Sequence record: PP658200.1
Reading direction: 5' to 3' (one strand)
Source: Escherichia phage HY126
DNA: 64,000 nucleotides
Within the stretch, counting starts at the first letter, position 1. Each line of letters starts with the position of its first letter. The position numbers were made by a program, and so were the translations under genes. The notes beneath the pieces are model-generated. The model was not told where the DNA came from. It saw nothing but the letters and a program-made list of their open reading frames with translations, and searched no databases. This document shows, piece after piece, positions 26,463 through 48,437 of this stretch.

Positions 26463-26868
26463 TATTTTTCCTTTCATCGATTAAATATGCAATGCCAAAT
26501 ACAATACATGTAATAAAACCTGTGATACAGATAGAAACCAACAACACTGTACCAAAGAACCAAATCAAGTTATCTTTAGTAGTTTGTTTGATATCCATCT
26601 CACGAATTTCTATAGCTATCGTATCACCTTTATTCAGAAGCGTATAAAACGATGGCGATACACGCCTGTCAAAAACTCGTCCTTGCTCATCTTTATAGAC
26701 TGCAATAAATTCTAATTTAGAATATTTTCCTGTAGATTGGCCTGAGATTAATTCCACTACCTCCACAGGAATTACTTTAGTTTCCATGTAAGTATTCTGG
26801 CTGTTCCAAATGAATGGAATAATAGCAAAAACTAAAGCTGCGATAAAACAACGAAGGCTATATCTCAT
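26455..26868 (-). CDS. Membrane protein
   Basis: ORF track 137 aa; N- and C-terminal hydrophobic helices. Confidence 0.5.
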   Translation of the reverse strand: MRYSLRCFIAALVFAIIPFIWNSQNTYMETKVIPVEVVELISGQSTGKYSKLEFIAVYKDEQGRVFDRRVSPSFYTLLNKGDTIAIEIREMDIKQTTKDNLIWFFGTVLLVSICITGFITCIVFGIAYLIDERKNNV

Positions 26869-27173
26869 TATAATGTTCTCTCAAATTTGTGGAAGCATTT
26901 ACGGCATTTCAATTTCAAGTTATCAGTGGTCCAGTTAACCAGTTGGACTTGGATAGTTCCACATTCCGGGCACGGATGTTTTGCTGCCGATTTGGCAGCA
27001 TTTTCACGTCGTTCAACCATTTTCATTATTTCGTTCCATGCCGGAGGAACGAACTCTTCTTCACCGTGGATTTTATCTCGCTGAACAAATTCAATCTTTG
27101 AACTATCGTCAATAAACTTAACCAAGCCGTGATTAGTGCTCATATCAATATCCTCTAAAAGACGTAGTTTCAT
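26868..27173 (-). CDS. Zinc-ribbon protein
   Basis: ORF track 101 aa; CPEC...CRKC. Confidence 0.5.
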   Translation of the reverse strand: MKLRLLEDIDMSTNHGLVKFIDDSSKIEFVQRDKIHGEEEFVPPAWNEIMKMVERRENAAKSAAKHPCPECGTIQVQLVNWTTDNLKLKCRKCFHKFERTL

Positions 27174-27847
27174 TATAAAACCTCAATGGCATTTCGTAAA
27201 CCATCAGCTTTTGCATTCAGAGCTTTTAATGATTTAGTTTGTTCTGCAATCTGGGCTTCGACTTCTTTCAGGCGAGATTTGAGATATTCGCGTTCTTCTC
27301 TTAAGTTATCAACTTTTTCTGCTTTAGGCTCTTTAATAGGCTTATACTCGTTAGGGTTCTTCAACTTAATTTGAATGCGAGAACTGTATAACATTGAACC
27401 ATTATCTTCGGTTTCATCATACATTTCTACCACGTCCATGATTCTTAACATCATGCGAAGTTTATAAGACAGCGAACGAATGGTTTTGTTGTGCTTATTA
27501 ATTTCTTCGGCTTTCATGGTACCGAGATTACGTGAGTAGTAATAAGGAACCTGGATATCAATTGATAATGATGCGGTACCATTACCTGTTGGTTTGAACA
27601 CTGCAGTAACCCAATCTTTAGCATGAACTGTATTTGTACGATCATCGCCACCTGTGAATAATTTACGTGAATGTTTAAAAAGCATATTCACTTGGTTATT
27701 GAATTCACAAGCAAATTTATCAGCAAATTTAGTTTCAGGAATGGTAGATAACCAATCAGCCAAATGAGTCTTTTTAACATCATTAACAATAGTGAATTCA
27801 ACCAAATCAGTTTTAGATGTCACAGATTTAATAAAGCTCGGCTTCAT
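27173..27847 (-). CDS. Paralog 1 of tandem family (C-terminal 224 aa from internal ATG); N-terminal region open but start codon is ACG
   Basis: In-frame extension of 95 codons upstream to a TAA at 28135..28133 contains no ATG/GTG/TTG; at the position where paralog 2 has ATG (SD GAGGAA + 6 nt) this copy has ACG at 28117..28115. Confidence 0.5.
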   Translation of the reverse strand: MKPSFIKSVTSKTDLVEFTIVNDVKKTHLADWLSTIPETKFADKFACEFNNQVNMLFKHSRKLFTGGDDRTNTVHAKDWVTAVFKPTGNGTASLSIDIQVPYYYSRNLGTMKAEEINKHNKTIRSLSYKLRMMLRIMDVVEMYDETEDNGSMLYSSRIQIKLKNPNEYKPIKEPKAEKVDNLREEREYLKSRLKEVEAQIAEQTKSLKALNAKADGLRNAIEVL

Positions 27848-28145
27848 AAAGTTTTTAATGTTATCGCGAGCTACAGTAGAAGATAATAAACGAGAACGTT
27901 TGAACCAATGAAGCAGTGTCCCTAATGAATGAGAATACGCATTCTGAGTATCTTTACAGATATGATTTTCTTGGCCTGTGTATGTACCAAAATCGCGAAG
28001 AATACCACTTACTACAACTCGGTGTGGAACATCAAATCCTAATGAACCAGAAGCACGTTGGGCATGAACGTTAGCGATAAGACCTGCAAAATAATCAATG
28101 TAATGTGAACGTGTCGTAATATTTTCCTCTCGTTAAGATAGAAAG

Positions 28146-28175
28146 ATTATACTCCAACCATCCTTGGTTGTAAAC
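28146..28175 (-). promoter_or_regulatory. Promoter/stem-loop cassette (GTTTACA, hairpin CAACCA-agga-TGGTTG, TATAAT)
   Basis: Minus sense GTTTAC-18-TATAAT directly after the stop of 28180..29115; repeated at 29142 and 30202. Confidence 0.5.
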
Positions 28176-28179
28176 TGAT

Positions 28180-29115
28180 TTATGATTTTAATGCATTCAT
28201 TGCGTTAAAAAGTTTAGAGTACTGCAACTGGAGCTTGGTAACTACTTGTTGAGCATCACGAAGCTTAGCTTGTGCTTTGTCAAGTTCAACAGACAGTTGG
28301 TCCACAGTGGCTTTGATTTGATTATAATAGTAATCTTCGGCAGGAAGAAGACCGTTAGAGATTTCCAGTTTAGTCGACGGTGAAGTGTATATAGATGGAG
28401 CAGTAAAATATGCACCTTGAACTTCAGCATTGCCAATTGGGGTTGTAGTAATTGACGCTTCGAACGTTGCATTTTCCTTTTTAAGATTTTGATAGTATTC
28501 AGAGTCTTTGTGCCACCATGGCGCAGGAACCTTTTTACCAATAGATACACGAGCCTGGATAGCGATATGGCCCTTATTCTTGATAGGGTTGATAATATTA
28601 AGCTCACGAGAATAAATTGCTTTAATCTGGTGGATATTATCACCTAAAACTTCCAACGCTTGATGGAATACACGAGCAACGTTATCATTCTTAGGTTTAT
28701 ACGTAAGAGTGAACTCGTTCTCACTGATAACCATGATTTCTAACTTATCGTAAGTATATTTCAAATGTTTCATGTTAATTGCTTGAGGACGAATACGAGA
28801 AGCAATGGCCATCAGATTGTTAAGGTTATTCCTGAACTGCTTAGCGAAATATTGCCCTTCACCGCCAATACAAAAATTACGAAGTTTCTGTTTGGCTAAT
28901 AAACGGCTGAACTCACCATTTTTAATGAACTCTTTAACGGGTGTGTTAGTAACGCATTCAAATTGAGTAAACTTACGAGAATTAATCCCATAATATGAAC
29001 AGATTTCCTCAATCTCTTCAGGAGTCTTTACAGGCATACGGATAGGATTAGGTCCTGGGGTATATGCGTTCGAGGTAAATTCTTTGATAAGTTCTCTACG
29101 TGTAATAGAAGCCAT
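28180..29115 (-). CDS. Paralog 2 of tandem family, coiled-coil C-terminus
   Basis: ORF track 311 aa; MASITRRELIKEF...; homologous blocks with paralogs 1 and 3. Confidence 0.6.
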   Translation of the reverse strand: MASITRRELIKEFTSNAYTPGPNPIRMPVKTPEEIEEICSYYGINSRKFTQFECVTNTPVKEFIKNGEFSRLLAKQKLRNFCIGGEGQYFAKQFRNNLNNLMAIASRIRPQAINMKHLKYTYDKLEIMVISENEFTLTYKPKNDNVARVFHQALEVLGDNIHQIKAIYSRELNIINPIKNKGHIAIQARVSIGKKVPAPWWHKDSEYYQNLKKENATFEASITTTPIGNAEVQGAYFTAPSIYTSPSTKLEISNGLLPAEDYYYNQIKATVDQLSVELDKAQAKLRDAQQVVTKLQLQYSKLFNAMNALKS

Positions 29116-29141
29116 TTTATATTCCTCATGTTGAAAAATTT

Positions 29142-29170
29142 ATTATACTCCAACCATCCTTGGTTGTACA
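29142..29170 (-). promoter_or_regulatory. Promoter/stem-loop cassette
   Basis: Minus sense TGTACA-17-TATAAT with CAACCA/TGGTTG hairpin; near-identical to 28146 copy. Confidence 0.5.
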
Positions 29171-30166
29171 TCATTCCTTAAGAAGTTTTACTACCTGAAT
29201 AAGATTAGCTCGTTCTGTTTTATTTTTACTGTTTAAGCCTGCTAATCGTGAGATTTCATCGTCAGTCTGTTGAATAGTTACATTAAGTTCGTTAATCAAA
29301 GCTTCAAAGTATTTGATTTGCTCAGCATGTTTTGATTCGAATTTCTGAACCGGAATAACGTCTTGGTTTAGTTCATCAATAAGGTCTTTAAGAGCATCTT
29401 CTTGGTTGATATCATATTCAACTTCTTTTATTTCTTCAACGAGCTCGTCTTTATATCTAACGTCTTTTAGTCCTGGTGCTGGTCCTGAAATCTCTTCTTT
29501 AAGAGTACAAACATATCCAATACGGTATCCAATGCTGTCTCGCTTGATATCAACTTCGTCAATAAATCCACAATGTTTAAGACCAGAGCCGATTAGGTCA
29601 AAATATCCTTGACGTCGTCCTTCAAACGTTACACGAACTACTAAGACAGTTTTACCTGCGACCTTTTGAAGCTCACATTTATAAAAGTCTGTTGAACCTG
29701 AATAACGTGGATGAGTTTTAAAGTTCATCTGACGATCTAGGCCCATTTGTAAGCGTGCTGATACGGCCATAAAACGTGTTTGGTTCTCGTTAAGATGTGC
29801 AACAATCCATTTCAAAGGCATTTTACACTGTTCACGGCCGAACAAATCAGTACGTCCTAGATTACGCAGGATGTTGTTAGAGTTAATCATCGACAGAACG
29901 TTAAGTTTATTCAGCGCGCTGAAGATTCCATCAGCCATTGATTTTCCGTAACCTTTACACGCTTTAATAAGCGCTCGCGGTAGATTAGTATAGATTTCAG
30001 ATGGCATATGAAAATCAAATTTACTAGTCAGTAATTGATGAACTTGGATAGCAATTTGCTCATAATTAAGTGCTCTGCGATCATTATGGTCTTTAAACCA
30101 CACTTTAATCTGTGAAGCACATAAACCGTTAATTTCATGTTTTACCGCATCAGATGTAATGCTCAT
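29171..30166 (-). CDS. Paralog 3 of tandem family, coiled-coil C-terminus
   Basis: ORF track 331 aa; MSITSDAVKHEING... Confidence 0.6.
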   Translation of the reverse strand: MSITSDAVKHEINGLCASQIKVWFKDHNDRRALNYEQIAIQVHQLLTSKFDFHMPSEIYTNLPRALIKACKGYGKSMADGIFSALNKLNVLSMINSNNILRNLGRTDLFGREQCKMPLKWIVAHLNENQTRFMAVSARLQMGLDRQMNFKTHPRYSGSTDFYKCELQKVAGKTVLVVRVTFEGRRQGYFDLIGSGLKHCGFIDEVDIKRDSIGYRIGYVCTLKEEISGPAPGLKDVRYKDELVEEIKEVEYDINQEDALKDLIDELNQDVIPVQKFESKHAEQIKYFEALINELNVTIQQTDDEISRLAGLNSKNKTERANLIQVVKLLKE

Positions 30167-30201
30167 AACTATTTCCTCAGATTGAATTGGAACTCAAAAC
30201 C

Positions 30202-30224
30202 ATTATAACCCATCCTTGGGTAAA
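30202..30224 (-). promoter_or_regulatory. Promoter/stem-loop cassette (degenerate)
   Basis: TTACC, hairpin ACCCA-agga-TGGGT, TATAAT on minus strand. Confidence 0.4.
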
Positions 30225-30228
30225 GCGT

Positions 30229-30756
30229 TTATGCGTGAACCGTCTTTAAACGTTCTTCAAATTTCCGAAGAGTACTAATACGTTCTGATTTCTGTTTTGT
30301 ATAGTTTGCAATACGTTCTGAAGTGAGAGCGTATCGTTCATTTACTGTTTCTTTCATGAAGTCAGGGATTTCACGAGAAGCTTTAATTTCATCAAACTTA
30401 TCGAGTACTGCCTGGTCTTCAGCGATTAAATTTTCGTACATCTCGATATCTTTCTTGATAAACTCGATATCTTCCTGGGTTACTTTGGATAAACGAGATG
30501 CTTTATCCTTTTTGTACTGCTCGTTAGTTTCACGAGACCAGAATAATGTACGTTTTTTGTTAGTGTTTTTATAGACTTCCACAATTCCAACTGAATCGAT
30601 GATAGCAATCCAATTCCAGCGAGATTTGAAAATCTGACCTCCGTCCACGGTAATCTCGTTACCATAAGCAACGTCATTAAAGAACTTGCTTTGTGCTTCA
30701 GATTTAAATTTACCGTCGTTATAATTTACCAGGTTGAAAATATCTTTAGCGTTCAT
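30229..30756 (-). CDS. Hypothetical protein
   Basis: ORF track 175 aa; GGAGGT SD. Confidence 0.55.
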   Translation of the reverse strand: MNAKDIFNLVNYNDGKFKSEAQSKFFNDVAYGNEITVDGGQIFKSRWNWIAIIDSVGIVEVYKNTNKKRTLFWSRETNEQYKKDKASRLSKVTQEDIEFIKKDIEMYENLIAEDQAVLDKFDEIKASREIPDFMKETVNERYALTSERIANYTKQKSERISTLRKFEERLKTVHA

Positions 30757-30774
30757 GTTTTACCTCCAGTAGTT

Positions 30775-30812
30775 GATAGGTCTATAATATCATAACCATA
30801 GACCTTGTAAAC
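30775..30812 (-). promoter_or_regulatory. Promoter/stem-loop cassette
   Basis: Minus sense GTTTAC-17-TATTAT; inverted repeat AGGTCTAT/ATAGACCT brackets the -10. Confidence 0.5.
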
Positions 30813-30814
30813 AA

Positions 30815-31102
30815 CTAAAAGAAACTTTTTTCGGTATTTTTTCCACTGAACCAAACAGACTTCGGGATTTTTTGTAATTTTTCAGATTTAAGTTTCTCTT
30901 CCTGTTCTTTCTTATATACAGCCTTGTCGTACTGGAGCATCTCTATGGCATTCTTTTGTAGACGGTCTAAGGTAATTAAGGCTTTAGTTTTTCCTTTCAA
31001 GGAAGAGTCCTGGCGAACCTCCTCGCTATATTGCATTGTAGAACTAACCATACGATGAGCATAGAGTTCTACTGCGGCTTTAATTTTTTGCATAAAATCC
31101 AT
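30815..31102 (-). CDS. Hypothetical protein
   Basis: ORF track 95 aa. Confidence 0.5.
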   Translation of the reverse strand: MDFMQKIKAAVELYAHRMVSSTMQYSEEVRQDSSLKGKTKALITLDRLQKNAIEMLQYDKAVYKKEQEEKLKSEKLQKIPKSVWFSGKNTEKSFF

Positions 31103-32250: not shown

Positions 32251-32288
32251 GATAGGTCTATAATAACATATCCTAAAAGCATGTACAC
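32251..32288 (-). promoter_or_regulatory. Promoter cassette
   Basis: GATAGGTCTATAATAACA...TGTACAC motif (minus sense GTGTACA ... TTATTATAGACCTATC). Confidence 0.45.
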
Positions 32289-38563: not shown

Positions 38564-39022
38564 CTAGATTTTAATCACTGCTTTAGAAGCTTTTCCTGGT
38601 AGTCGTTTACTGTTAATAATAGCCATTCTGCATTGAAGAGTCTTCATTTTGAATGCTGGATTTTCGCGACAAACTGTAAGTCCTAACCAAAGATTTCCAT
38701 CAGTTATTTCTAAACGGCCTGGGCGATATTCGACACCTTCGACAAAATCTTCATCAACATCTGGACGTGCTGGCATTGATAAAAATTCTGCAACTTCTTT
38801 AACATGATTTTTTACTTTACGAAATAATTCAAAAACGTAATTCTCATCTATTTCTCTCTGGATGGCACGATCTAAGAGATGTTGAGAATACTTGATATGA
38901 AAGCCTGGTAGTCCAAGAGACTTTGCAGCATCTTTTATACTGGCATTTATTTTGCGGAACTCCGTTTCAAAGATTCGACGGAGTTTATTACGGCGGATAA
39001 AAACGTCTGAATTGATAGTCAT
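38564..39022 (-). CDS. regB: RegB site-specific endoribonuclease
   Basis: ORF track 152 aa; near-identical to T4 RegB (MTINSDVFIRRNKLRR...CRMAIINSKRLPGKASKAVIK). Confidence 0.9.
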   Translation of the reverse strand: MTINSDVFIRRNKLRRIFETEFRKINASIKDAAKSLGLPGFHIKYSQHLLDRAIQREIDENYVFELFRKVKNHVKEVAEFLSMPARPDVDEDFVEGVEYRPGRLEITDGNLWLGLTVCRENPAFKMKTLQCRMAIINSKRLPGKASKAVIKI

Positions 39023-45948: not shown

Positions 45949-45987
45949 GATAGGTCTATAGTATCAACAACTACAGACCTTGTAAAC
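45949..45987 (-). promoter_or_regulatory. Promoter/stem-loop cassette
   Basis: Minus sense GTTTACA-AGGTCT...TACTATAGACCTATC; -35 abuts the stop of 46000..46956. Confidence 0.5.
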
Positions 45988-47775: not shown

Positions 47776-48081
47776 TTAGCACAACGCAGAAGACGAAACC
47801 CAAGCACCTTCAGTAATAACGTAACCATTACCTTCACGCTTAACATCGCCACCATTATTTTCAATTTCATTTTTCATCCACTGGGATACGATTTCACCCT
47901 TAGGATAATAAGTACGACCGCTACCATAATCACCTACAGAAAATGATACGGCATATTGGTCTGCGATCTTTGTTGCTTCTTCTTCGATACGTTCAGCTTG
48001 ATTCAGAAGTTTATAAATTGCATCTGAAGCGGATTTGGCATCATTAAACTCTGGTACTTTAATTTCAATAATCTTACTCAT
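47776..48081 (-). CDS. Small acidic protein, member 3 of triad
   Basis: ORF track 101 aa; ends EGAWVSSSALC. Confidence 0.5.
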   Translation of the reverse strand: MSKIIEIKVPEFNDAKSASDAIYKLLNQAERIEEEATKIADQYAVSFSVGDYGSGRTYYPKGEIVSQWMKNEIENNGGDVKREGNGYVITEGAWVSSSALC

Positions 48082-48437
48082 TTTCTACATTCCTTAATAA
48101 AGTTTTCGATTGTTTCATTTTCACGTCTAGCTAGGAGTTCATTATAACTAATCATTTGAGAAGCGTAAACCTTTTTATTTTTCTTGTTGTGGTTTATAAA
48201 ATCGTAGTAAAAATAGACTACAGTACAAAATGATGCGATGGATGCAAAGGCTTGGGTATACCGTAAGTCCTGCCATTGGTCTGTGAATCCACCAGTGTTC
48301 CCTATAAATCCTAACACAACGCCGTCAATAAGAAATCCAACTAATCCAAAGGCAAATCCCATGCCAATACTCATAATAAAAATTAGAATGTTCTCACCAA
48401 GAGAAGGCCATACGGTTAAGAGTTGAGGCTTTTGCAT
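48078..48437 (-). CDS. Membrane protein, C-terminal ENFIKECR motif family
   Basis: ORF track 119 aa; two TM helices; ends ENETIENFIKECRK. Confidence 0.55.
   Translation of the reverse strand: MQKPQLLTVWPSLGENILIFIMSIGMGFAFGLVGFLIDGVVLGFIGNTGGFTDQWQDLRYTQAFASIASFCTVVYFYYDFINHNKKNKKVYASQMISYNELLARRENETIENFIKECRK

What the first reader, a model, noticed from the sequence alone, without database searches (positions are those of the whole stretch)
27173..30166. Tandem three-member paralog family in which the first copy has ACG where its siblings have ATG
Three adjacent ~310-330 aa ORFs (27173.., 28180..29115, 29171..30166) share homologous blocks and a coiled-coil C-terminus, and each is preceded by the same promoter/hairpin cassette. 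In copy 1 the reading frame stays open for 95 codons upstream of the annotated ATG (27847) back to a TAA at 28135..28133. At the exact spacing from the GAGGAA SD where copy 2 has ATG-GCT-TCT-ATT-ACA-CGT, copy 1 reads ACG-ACA-CGT, a single T-to-C change plus a 9-nt deletion. Either the full-length protein is made from a non-canonical ACG start, or only the C-terminal 224 aa are made, or the copy is decaying. An intact 95-codon frame without any start codon argues against simple decay.
Basis: seen in the sequence. Interest (0 to 1): 0.55.

Follow-up and report, generated by a model that had tools for sequence, protein, structure and literature searches.

The report
Private start-codon mutation in phage nrdC.3
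One accessory gene (nrdC.3) of this RB69-like T4-type coliphage has its ATG start changed to ACG by a single T-to-C substitution seen in no other sequenced relative, so it is an ordinary recent start-loss allele or a base-call error, not a conserved unusual start codon.

Summary
The sequence observation is correct. ACG sits at 28117..28115, six bases after GAGGAA, exactly where the two neighbouring genes have ATG. The frame is open for 95 codons with no ATG, GTG or TTG.

The window is a Mosigvirus (RB69-like). The three genes are nrdC.3, nrdC.5 and nrdC.6. Every relative examined has ATG at this site:
- 149 GenBank phage records carry the ATG context and none carries ACG.
- ACG is also absent from IMG/VR, JGI metagenomes and GTDB genomes.
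- Among 12 Mosigvirus copies of the gene (window included), codon 1 is the only codon private to the window.

So the open frame reflects how recent the change is, not selection. The missing 90 residues are a conserved N-terminal helical domain under purifying selection (dN/dS about 0.1-0.4 in closely related pairs, about 0.2 against T4). The M-T-R start of the protein is invariant.

Most likely this is a strong hypomorph or null allele of a dispensable accessory gene. Trace initiation could occur at ACG or at the adjacent in-frame ATT. A base-call error is the main rival.

"Three-member paralog family" is overstated. The genes belong to three separate Pfam/PHROG families, each with its own T4 ortholog, and only copies 1 and 2 show weak profile similarity. 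The shared promoter/hairpin cassette is real and matches the published PeSL elements. Low interest.

The parts
28115..28117 (-). ACG at the position of the family's conserved ATG start codon of nrdC.3 (T-to-C at 28116)
   Evidence: Orthologs read ATG. 0 versus 149 phage records.
28118..28120 (-). In-frame ATT directly 5' of ACG, 5 nt after GAGG. This near-cognate codon could support trace initiation. It is present in all relatives too.
   Evidence: Sequence. AUU initiates at 1-2% of AUG in E. coli (bioRxiv 10.1101/063800).
28124..28129 (-). Shine-Dalgarno GAGGAA, intact, 6 nt before ACG. The two neighbouring genes have the same spacing.
27173..28117 (-). Full-length nrdC.3 reading frame (314 codons plus stop), ortholog of T4 nrdC.3 (Y04O)
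   Evidence: 57% identity to T4 NrdC.3, E 7e-122. phrog_1435 E 5e-104 over residues 2-314. Annotated as 314-316 aa with ATG in JS09, S143_2, DCP548 and others.
27848..28114 (-). Codons 2-90: conserved N-terminal helical domain, lost if translation starts at the internal ATG
   Evidence: AF2 pLDDT 80-92 for residues 1-85. dN/dS 0.11-0.38 across pairs, 0.17-0.22 against T4. M1, T2, R3, Y6, I7, F10 and I14 invariant across nrdC.3/nrdC.4. An 89-aa stand-alone fragment exists in BFVD, TMt 0.87.
27845..27847 (-). Internal ATG (Met91), the first canonical start in frame. No purine-rich SD upstream (gataacattaaaaactttATG).
28146..28174 (-). PeSL-type cassette before nrdC.3: TTTACA-17-TATAAT, with hairpin CAACCA-AGGA-TGGTTG (28155..28170) in the spacer
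   Evidence: PeSL description in PMC2839356 and PMC4122927.
28180..29115 (-). nrdC.5 homolog (copy 2), DUF7235
   Evidence: PF23882 E 1.2e-112. T4 NrdC.5 is also DUF7235. 23% identity over 307 aa to T4 NrdC.5, E 4e-7.
29142..29170 (-). PeSL-type cassette before nrdC.5: TGTACA-17-TATAAT, with the same hairpin (29151..29166)
29171..30166 (-). nrdC.6 homolog (copy 3), PF26899 Phage_T4_Y05B / phrog_2257
   Evidence: (29% identity to T4 NrdC.6, E 7e-19)
30202..30230 (-). Cassette variant before nrdC.6: MotA-box-like AAACGCTTTA, hairpin ACCCA-AGGA-TGGGT (30208..30221), then TATAAT 13 nt after the box. No -35 hexamer at 17 nt.
   Evidence: MotA box consensus and 12+/-1 spacing from PMC2988021. Middle-promoter activity is inferred.

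Best explanation
The window is an RB69-like (Mosigvirus) T4-type phage. Copy 1 is the ortholog of T4 nrdC.3, an early accessory gene of unknown function. In this one genome a single T-to-C transition has turned its conserved ATG start into ACG.

Shown:
- The change is private to this genome.
- It is the only private change in the gene.
- The N-terminal 90 codons are genuine coding sequence under purifying selection in the family.

Inferred:
- The intact GAGGAA site still recruits ribosomes. Initiation at ACG (about 0.1-1% of AUG) or at the adjacent in-frame AUU (about 1-2%) would give only trace full-length protein.
- The internal ATG at codon 91 has no Shine-Dalgarno. It would yield a protein lacking the whole N-terminal helical domain.

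The allele is therefore a recent strong hypomorph or null of a dispensable gene. It is tolerated because nrdC-region accessory genes are not needed on laboratory hosts. The open frame simply reflects the youth of the mutation.
For: - ACG 45-mer: 0 records. ATG 45-mer: 149 records in 50,697 phage genomes.
- ACG 32-mer: absent from IMG/VR, JGI metagenomes and GTDB genomes.
- All 12 other loci carrying this start context read ATG.
- Of the 88 DCP548 CDS located in the window (44 kb), 87 start with ATG there and only this one does not. None of the 88 is disrupted; six differ slightly in length, mostly through in-frame indels.
- Codon 1 is the sole window-private codon among 12 Mosigvirus copies of the gene, window included. 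The closest relative differs at 4 nt.
- dN/dS for codons 2-90 is 0.11-0.38 across pairs, against 0.04-0.27 for the rest of the gene.
- The N-terminal M-T-R..Y-I..F motif is invariant through T4 nrdC.3 and nrdC.4.
- The phrog_1435 match covers residues 2-314.
- AF2 models residues 1-85 confidently as helical.
- Near-cognate initiation levels come from 10.1101/063800.
- T4 clones with deletions that remove nrdC.5 are viable (PMC9391042).
- N-terminally truncated gene calls are about 10 of roughly 1,400 member sequences of the family, so the gene is normally kept intact.
Against: - A true mutation cannot be told from a consensus base-call error without the reads.
- No expression data exist, so residual translation from ACG or AUU could suffice for function.
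- A few other relatives carry independent 5' lesions in the same gene. This leaves room for occasional positive selection for loss.
Confidence: 0.62

Rival explanations
1. Sequencing, consensus or minority-variant artefact: the phage population actually has ATG, and the C at 28116 is a base-call error.
For: It is a singleton never seen in 149 related records or in any other collection. It is the only private difference in the gene.
Against: The assembly looks clean. The 88 DCP548 CDS located in the window are all open, with only a few small, mostly in-frame length differences. Consensus errors are more often indels than transitions (general knowledge).
Confidence: 0.2
2. Adaptive loss of function: the start-codon knock-out was selected, for example because NrdC.3 is sensed by a host abortive-infection or defence system, or is costly on the propagation host.
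For: - Independent 5' lesions occur in the same gene elsewhere. A metagenome contig has ATG-to-ATT plus a TAC-to-TAA stop at codon 7. Shigella phage Sf25 lacks the SD, the ATG and the 5' end of the ORF relative to T4. Another contig carries a split gene.
- A neighbouring family member, T4 NrdC.5, acts in the phage-defence arms race as an anti-Dsr1 factor (PMC9391042).
Against: - Such lesions are rare, about 0.7% of member sequences.
- The gene is under purifying selection overall.
- Two of the examples are low-coverage or short metagenome contigs.
- No defence system is known to sense NrdC.3; the literature search found no study of it.
Confidence: 0.1
3. Only the C-terminal 224 aa are made from the internal ATG (27847) and work as a shorter protein.
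For: It is the first canonical start in frame. Similar 224-245 aa products are called in a few relatives. T4 has precedents for internal starts, such as gene 49 with two annotated CDS.
Against: - There is no SD upstream of this ATG.
- Met91 is conserved as part of the FMKPS protein motif in full-length orthologs.
- The product would lack the best-conserved, confidently folded N-terminal domain.
Confidence: 0.05
4. ACG (or the adjacent AUU) is a selected non-canonical start that deliberately keeps NrdC.3 at a low level, like infC or pcnB AUU.
For: The SD and spacing are intact. ACG and AUU can initiate with fMet at low levels in E. coli.
Against: The non-AUG codon is not conserved in any ortholog. 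Of the 88 DCP548 CDS located in the window, all 87 others start with ATG.
Confidence: 0.03

Closest known systems
T4 nrdC.3 (Y04O) / nrdC.4 (Y04P) family: Pfam PF26897 Phage_T4_Y04OP, PHROG 1435
   Same: - Full-length homology: 57% identity to T4 NrdC.3.
- Same position between nrdC.5 and nrdC.2, upstream of nrdC.
- Same N-terminal motif and C-terminal long helix.
- Same upstream hairpin/promoter cassette in T4.
   Different: The start codon is ACG instead of ATG in this genome only. The function of the family is unknown.
PeSL (promoter-early stem-loop) cassettes of T4-type phages (Arbiol et al. 2010, PMC2839356; Comeau et al. 2014, PMC4122927)
   Same: - A sigma70-like early promoter (TTTACA-N17-TATAAT) with a stem-loop between the -35 and -10 boxes.
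- SD and start codon at the 3' end.
- Repeated in front of consecutive non-essential ORFs of a hyperplastic region.
   Different: - The stem sequence (CAACCA/TGGTTG with an AGGA loop) differs from the published RB49, PST and nt-1 types.
- The third copy has a MotA-box-like element instead of a -35, like the published 'PmSL' variant.
- Promoter and terminator activity were not tested here.
Natural non-AUG/GUG/UUG starts in E. coli (infC and pcnB AUU), and start-codon mutants such as AUG-to-ACG
   Same: A near-cognate codon at correct spacing from a good SD. Such codons can initiate at low efficiency.
   Different: In infC and pcnB the unusual codon is conserved and regulatory. Here it is a singleton with no conservation.
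T4 NrdC.5 (DUF7235), reported to counteract the Dsr1 defence (Srikant et al. 2022, PMC9391042)
   Same: Window copy 2 is a full-length DUF7235 member, in the same relative genomic position.
   Different: It is only 23% identical to T4 NrdC.5. Anti-Dsr1 activity has not been tested for the RB69-type protein. This concerns copy 2, not the ACG gene.

Membership tests
T4 NrdC.3/NrdC.4 family (PF26897 / phrog_1435) | Full-length match to the family profile | tested here: met
   phrog_1435 E 5.2e-104, residues 2-314 against profile positions 2-333/334. All homologs carry PF26897.
T4 NrdC.3/NrdC.4 family (PF26897 / phrog_1435) | Orthology and synteny with T4 nrdC.3 (between nrdC.5/.4 and nrdC.2, upstream of nrdC) | tested here: met
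   57% identity over 314 aa, E 7e-122. Gene order.
T4 NrdC.3/NrdC.4 family (PF26897 / phrog_1435) | ATG start followed by the invariant T-R..Y-I..F N-terminal motif | tested here: not met
   The motif is present, but codon 1 is ACG. M1 is invariant in the 15-sequence alignment of family members. ATG is present in all 12 other loci that carry this start context.
Genes with a conserved non-canonical start codon (infC/pcnB type) | The non-AUG codon is conserved among orthologs | tested here: not met
   0 records with ACG against 149 with ATG. 0 matches in IMG/VR, metagenomes and GTDB genomes.
Genes with a conserved non-canonical start codon (infC/pcnB type) | Protein N-terminus shown experimentally to start at that codon | not testable with these tools
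   Needs N-terminal proteomics or initiation-site ribosome profiling.
PeSL cassette | Sigma70-like early promoter, T4-type consensus TTTACW-N17-TAYWAT | tested here: met
   Copy 1 TTTACA-17-TATAAT (11/12). Copy 2 TGTACA-17-TATAAT (10/12). Copy 3 lacks a -35 at 17 nt and has a MotA-box-like AAACGCTTTA 13 nt from TATAAT.
PeSL cassette | Stem-loop between the -35 and -10 boxes or overlapping the -10 | tested here: met
   A 6-bp (copies 1, 2) or 5-bp (copy 3) stem with an AGGA loop appears in both the MFE and centroid folds. Definition from PMC2839356.
PeSL cassette | Repeated motif flanking non-essential ORFs, ending in SD plus start codon | tested here: met
   CCAAGGATGG occurs exactly 3 times, only before these genes. 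Alignment with the T4 nrdC.3 and nrdC.4 upstream regions.
PeSL cassette | Promoter and terminator/attenuator activity | not testable with these tools
   No T-run follows the stem. The terminator scan finds no minus-strand site. Needs reporter assays.
   BLASTP best E 0.18-2.8. hhalign copy 1 versus copy 2: 81% probability, E 1.3e-5, 66 columns. Copy 3 versus either: 3% or less. Three different PHROG and Pfam families. AF2 secondary-structure order is similar, but the models are low-confidence.
DUF7235 / T4 NrdC.5 (copy 2 only) | Match above the Pfam gathering score | tested here: met
   376.8 bits against a cut-off of 30. T4 NrdC.5 scores 420.6 bits.
DUF7235 / T4 NrdC.5 (copy 2 only) | Counteracts Dsr1 | not testable with these tools
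   Shown only for T4 NrdC.5 (PMC9391042).

The most novel reading that the evidence does not exclude
The start-codon knock-out is not neutral. It was selected because full-length NrdC.3 is detected by, or is costly in the presence of, a host defence system. Under this reading nrdC.3 is an immunity trigger or an arms-race gene that phages lose repeatedly through 5' lesions. The window's ACG, the ATT plus stop in a metagenome contig, and the deletion in Sf25 would be three such events.
Probability: 0.08. Interest if true: 0.45.

Novelty: already known. Interest (0 to 1): 0.12.

Why it matters
It matters little on its own, and mainly for annotation. The gene should be recorded as nrdC.3 with a mutated start, or flagged for re-sequencing. 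It should not be recorded as a 224-aa protein or as an ACG-initiated gene.

The allele is a ready-made natural knock-down of an uncharacterised accessory gene. That gene sits next to a family (NrdC.5) already implicated in counter-defence. An isogenic ACG/ATG comparison could therefore be a cheap route to a phenotype for NrdC.3.

Tried and rejected
- **Conserved ACG start.** Rejected by exact-context searches in four collections and by the fetched ortholog loci.
- **Recent tandem triplication.** Rejected. Each copy has its own T4 ortholog and its own Pfam/PHROG family, so any common origin predates the T4-RB69 split.
- **Structure route to test paralogy and function.**
  - The AF2 models were poor: mean pLDDT 53 and 49.
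  - Foldseek against BFVD returned, besides its own family, only one marginal full-length hit: a Serratia phage PS2 protein, E 3.3e-4, TM-scores 0.15-0.17.
  - Foldseek against the PDB gave nothing with E <= 0.001.
- **Whole-library HMMER with the family profile.** Only 5 representatives were found. One was an nrdC.4-like protein, and none came from the nrdC.5 or nrdC.6 families.
- **Word-indexed homolog searches.** They returned only close relatives, so the profiles were shallow (Neff 1.5-2).
- **Rfam.** No RNA family in 26500..31000.
- **Window's own record.** The 224-aa product is not in the protein collection, and the best GenBank match is 99.3% identical. The source record and its reads could not be inspected.
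- **Literature.** No paper mentions nrdC.3.
Full report
**What the region is.** The 4-kb stretch matches 662 phage records. Those covering it end to end are RB69-like Mosigvirus genomes, and the best is Escherichia phage DCP548 at 99.3% identity. All genes lie on the minus strand, upstream of the glutaredoxin/thioredoxin gene nrdC. In RB69 nomenclature the three ORFs are nrdC.3 (copy 1), nrdC.5 (copy 2) and nrdC.6 (copy 3). T4 has the same block, with nrdC.3.4.5 and .6 in tandem.

**The observation.**
- The coordinates are exact. ACG is at 28117..28115 and the in-frame TAA at 28135..28133.
- The frame is open for 95 codons down to ATG 27847. It contains no ATG, GTG or TTG.
- All three genes have GAGGAA followed by six bases and then the start position.
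- Five of the 95 codons (REENI) are simply the ribosome-binding region. The other 90 are the N-terminus of the protein.

**Orthologs have ATG.**
- JS09 and S143_2 annotate a 316-aa product and read ...GAGGAAAATATT-ATG-ACA-CGT-TCA. DCP548, 308Ecol101PP, JQD51 and AV117 annotate 314 aa.
- A 45-mer centred on the codon finds 0 of 50,697 phage records in its ACG form. In its ATG form it finds 149 records, 134 of them at 99% identity or better.
- A 32-mer with ACG is absent from IMG/VR, JGI metagenomes and GTDB genomes. The ATG form is present in IMG/VR.
- In the fetched loci, 12 of 12 others that carry this context read ATG.
- T4 NrdC.3 starts MKTRKHYIDYF and the window's frame reads (T)TRSHYIDYF. 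M1, T2, R3, Y6, I7, F10 and I14 are invariant across nrdC.3 and nrdC.4 proteins.
It is not a feature of this locus.

**How recent the change is, and how good the assembly is.**
- Against DCP548, 88 annotated CDS over 44 kb could be located in the window.
- 87 of them start with ATG in the window, and none is disrupted. Six differ slightly in length, mostly through in-frame indels. nrdC.3 is the only one with a non-ATG start.
- Across the 12 Mosigvirus copies of the gene, window included, codon 1 is the only codon private to the window.
- The closest relative, 308Ecol101PP, differs at 4 nt. The other three variants are shared with other phages.
- So no measurable time has passed since the T-to-C change. 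An intact downstream frame is exactly what a brand-new start-loss allele, or a base-call error, would look like. It carries no information about selection.

**The N-terminal extension is real protein.**
- dN/dS for codons 2-90 is 0.11-0.14 in three Mosigvirus pairs, 0.38 in a fourth with few substitutions, and 0.17-0.22 against T4. The rest of the gene gives 0.04-0.27.
- The PHROG profile match runs from residue 2 to residue 314.
- AlphaFold models residues 1-85 as a helical bundle at pLDDT 80-92. The middle of the protein is poorly modelled.
- A stand-alone 89-aa fragment in BFVD superposes on this domain, with target-normalised TM 0.87.
- Translation from the internal ATG would delete this whole domain. 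That ATG has no Shine-Dalgarno.

**Likely consequence.** This part is inferred.
- The SD is intact, so 30S subunits should still load.
- In E. coli reporters, AUU, AUA, AUC and CUG initiate at 1-2% of AUG. The remaining codons, ACG among them, initiate at 0.1-1%. ACG-initiated GFP carried N-terminal Met (10.1101/063800).
- An in-frame ATT lies immediately 5' of the ACG, 5 nt after GAGG. It is present in all relatives.
- Trace full-length protein, possibly one residue longer, is therefore plausible.
- The allele should be a strong hypomorph or null.
- This part of T4-type genomes is dispensable on laboratory hosts. T4 clones with deletions that remove nrdC.5 are viable (PMC9391042).

**Paralogy.**
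- BLASTP among the three window proteins is not significant.
- They belong to three PHROGs and three Pfam families. Each has its own T4 ortholog:

| Window copy | T4 ortholog | Match |
|---|---|---|
| Copy 1 | nrdC.3 | E 7e-122 |
| Copy 2 | nrdC.5 | E 4e-7, both DUF7235 |
| Copy 3 | nrdC.6 | E 7e-19 |

- nrdC.3 and nrdC.4 are genuine paralogs. They share one PHROG and the Pfam family named Phage_T4_Y04OP.
- hhalign gives 81% probability (E 1.3e-5, 66 columns) between the nrdC.3/.4 profile and the nrdC.5 profile. It gives nothing for nrdC.6.
- Three features are compatible with an ancient common origin but do not demonstrate it: similar length, similar predicted secondary-structure order, and a C-terminal long helix. 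So is the shared M-(K)-T-R N-terminal motif of nrdC.3.4 and .5.
- A whole-library HMMER search found only five representatives, none from the other two families.

**The cassette.**
- The 10-mer CCAAGGATGG occurs exactly three times in 64 kb, once before each gene.
- Before copies 1 and 2 it sits in the 17-nt spacer of TTTACA/TGTACA...TATAAT and forms a 6-bp stem with an AGGA loop.
- T4 has the same element before nrdC.3 and a variant before nrdC.4.
- This is the published PeSL architecture: an early promoter with a stem-loop between -35 and -10, ending in SD plus start, repeated in hyperplastic regions. It has been proposed to mediate modular shuffling (PMC2839356, PMC4122927).
- Before copy 3 the -35 is replaced by a MotA-box-like AAACGCTTTA, 13 nt from TATAAT. 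This resembles the 'PmSL' variant. Its activity is inferred only.

**Other lesions in the same gene.**
- A short ENA metagenome contig has ATG-to-ATT plus TAC-to-TAA at codon 7.
- Shigella phage Sf25 lacks the SD, the ATG and the 5' end of the ORF relative to T4.
- A low-coverage contig has the gene split in two.
- These account for about 10 of roughly 1,400 member sequences. The gene is normally kept intact, and occasional loss is what one expects of a non-essential gene.
- They leave a small probability that loss is sometimes selected.

**Verdict.**
- The interpretation as a possible non-canonical start is not supported.
- The feature is a private start-codon substitution in a known, non-essential gene. 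It is either a real recent allele or a base-call error.
- The promoter/hairpin cassette is a known element type.
- Interest is low.

Noticed in passing
L006 (ENA ERZ28635470 scaffold_24646), about 634-650: An independent lesion in the same gene of another Mosigvirus. The start is ATG-to-ATT, and TAC-to-TAA makes a stop at codon 7. Gene callers therefore report the same 224-aa product. Both changes are G:C-to-T:A transversions, so a library artefact is possible.
   Followed up: partly
L007 (Shigella phage Sf25, MF327009), about 1800-1830: A deletion relative to T4 removes the SD, the ATG and the 5' end of the nrdC.3 ORF. The rest is annotated as a 240-aa protein starting at an internal Met.
   Followed up: partly
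window 30775..30788, 32251..32264 and 45949..45962 (minus strand): A second repeated cassette, ATTATAGACCTATC, overlaps a TATTAT -10 box upstream of nrdC.8 and nrdC.10, with a one-mismatch copy further on. It occurs 3 times against 0.03 expected. It is probably another PeSL type.
   Followed up: partly
window 30221..30230 (minus strand): A MotA-box-like AAACGCTTTA lies 13 nt upstream of the TATAAT before nrdC.6. This suggests a middle-mode promoter instead of the early promoters before nrdC.3 and nrdC.5.
   Followed up: partly
window 27171..27175 (minus strand): The nrdC.3 stop and the nrdC.2 start overlap (TAATG). Loss of nrdC.3 translation could reduce nrdC.2 expression by uncoupling. However, nrdC.2 has its own GAGG 7 nt upstream.
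   Followed up: no
window 28151..28154 and 29147..29150 (minus strand): GGAG lies immediately 3' of the hairpin in the cassettes before nrdC.3 and nrdC.5. From my own knowledge, GGAG is the motif cut by the T4 RegB endoribonuclease. The window encodes a RegB homolog near 38564..39022. This would be relevant only for read-through transcripts.
   Followed up: no
window copy 2 (28180..29115) and T4 nrdC.3/.4/.5: The N-termini of otherwise dissimilar families share M-(K)-T-R-x-x-(Y/L/I)-I: MKTRKHYIDYF, MTRNEYIKSF, MKTRSQIEDM and MASITRRELIKEF. This could be a remnant of common ancestry, or of cassette-mediated recombination reaching into the first codons.
   Followed up: partly
window about 48080..48437 (minus strand): One CDS differs from its DCP548 counterpart by a single-base gap and by 119 versus 120 aa. 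This is the only possible frameshift among the 88 CDS compared.
   Followed up: no
P0033 (299 aa): This is a chimeric relative. The C-terminal half is NrdC.3-like (79% identity), but the N-terminal half is replaced by unrelated sequence. That is consistent with modular shuffling in this region.
   Followed up: no
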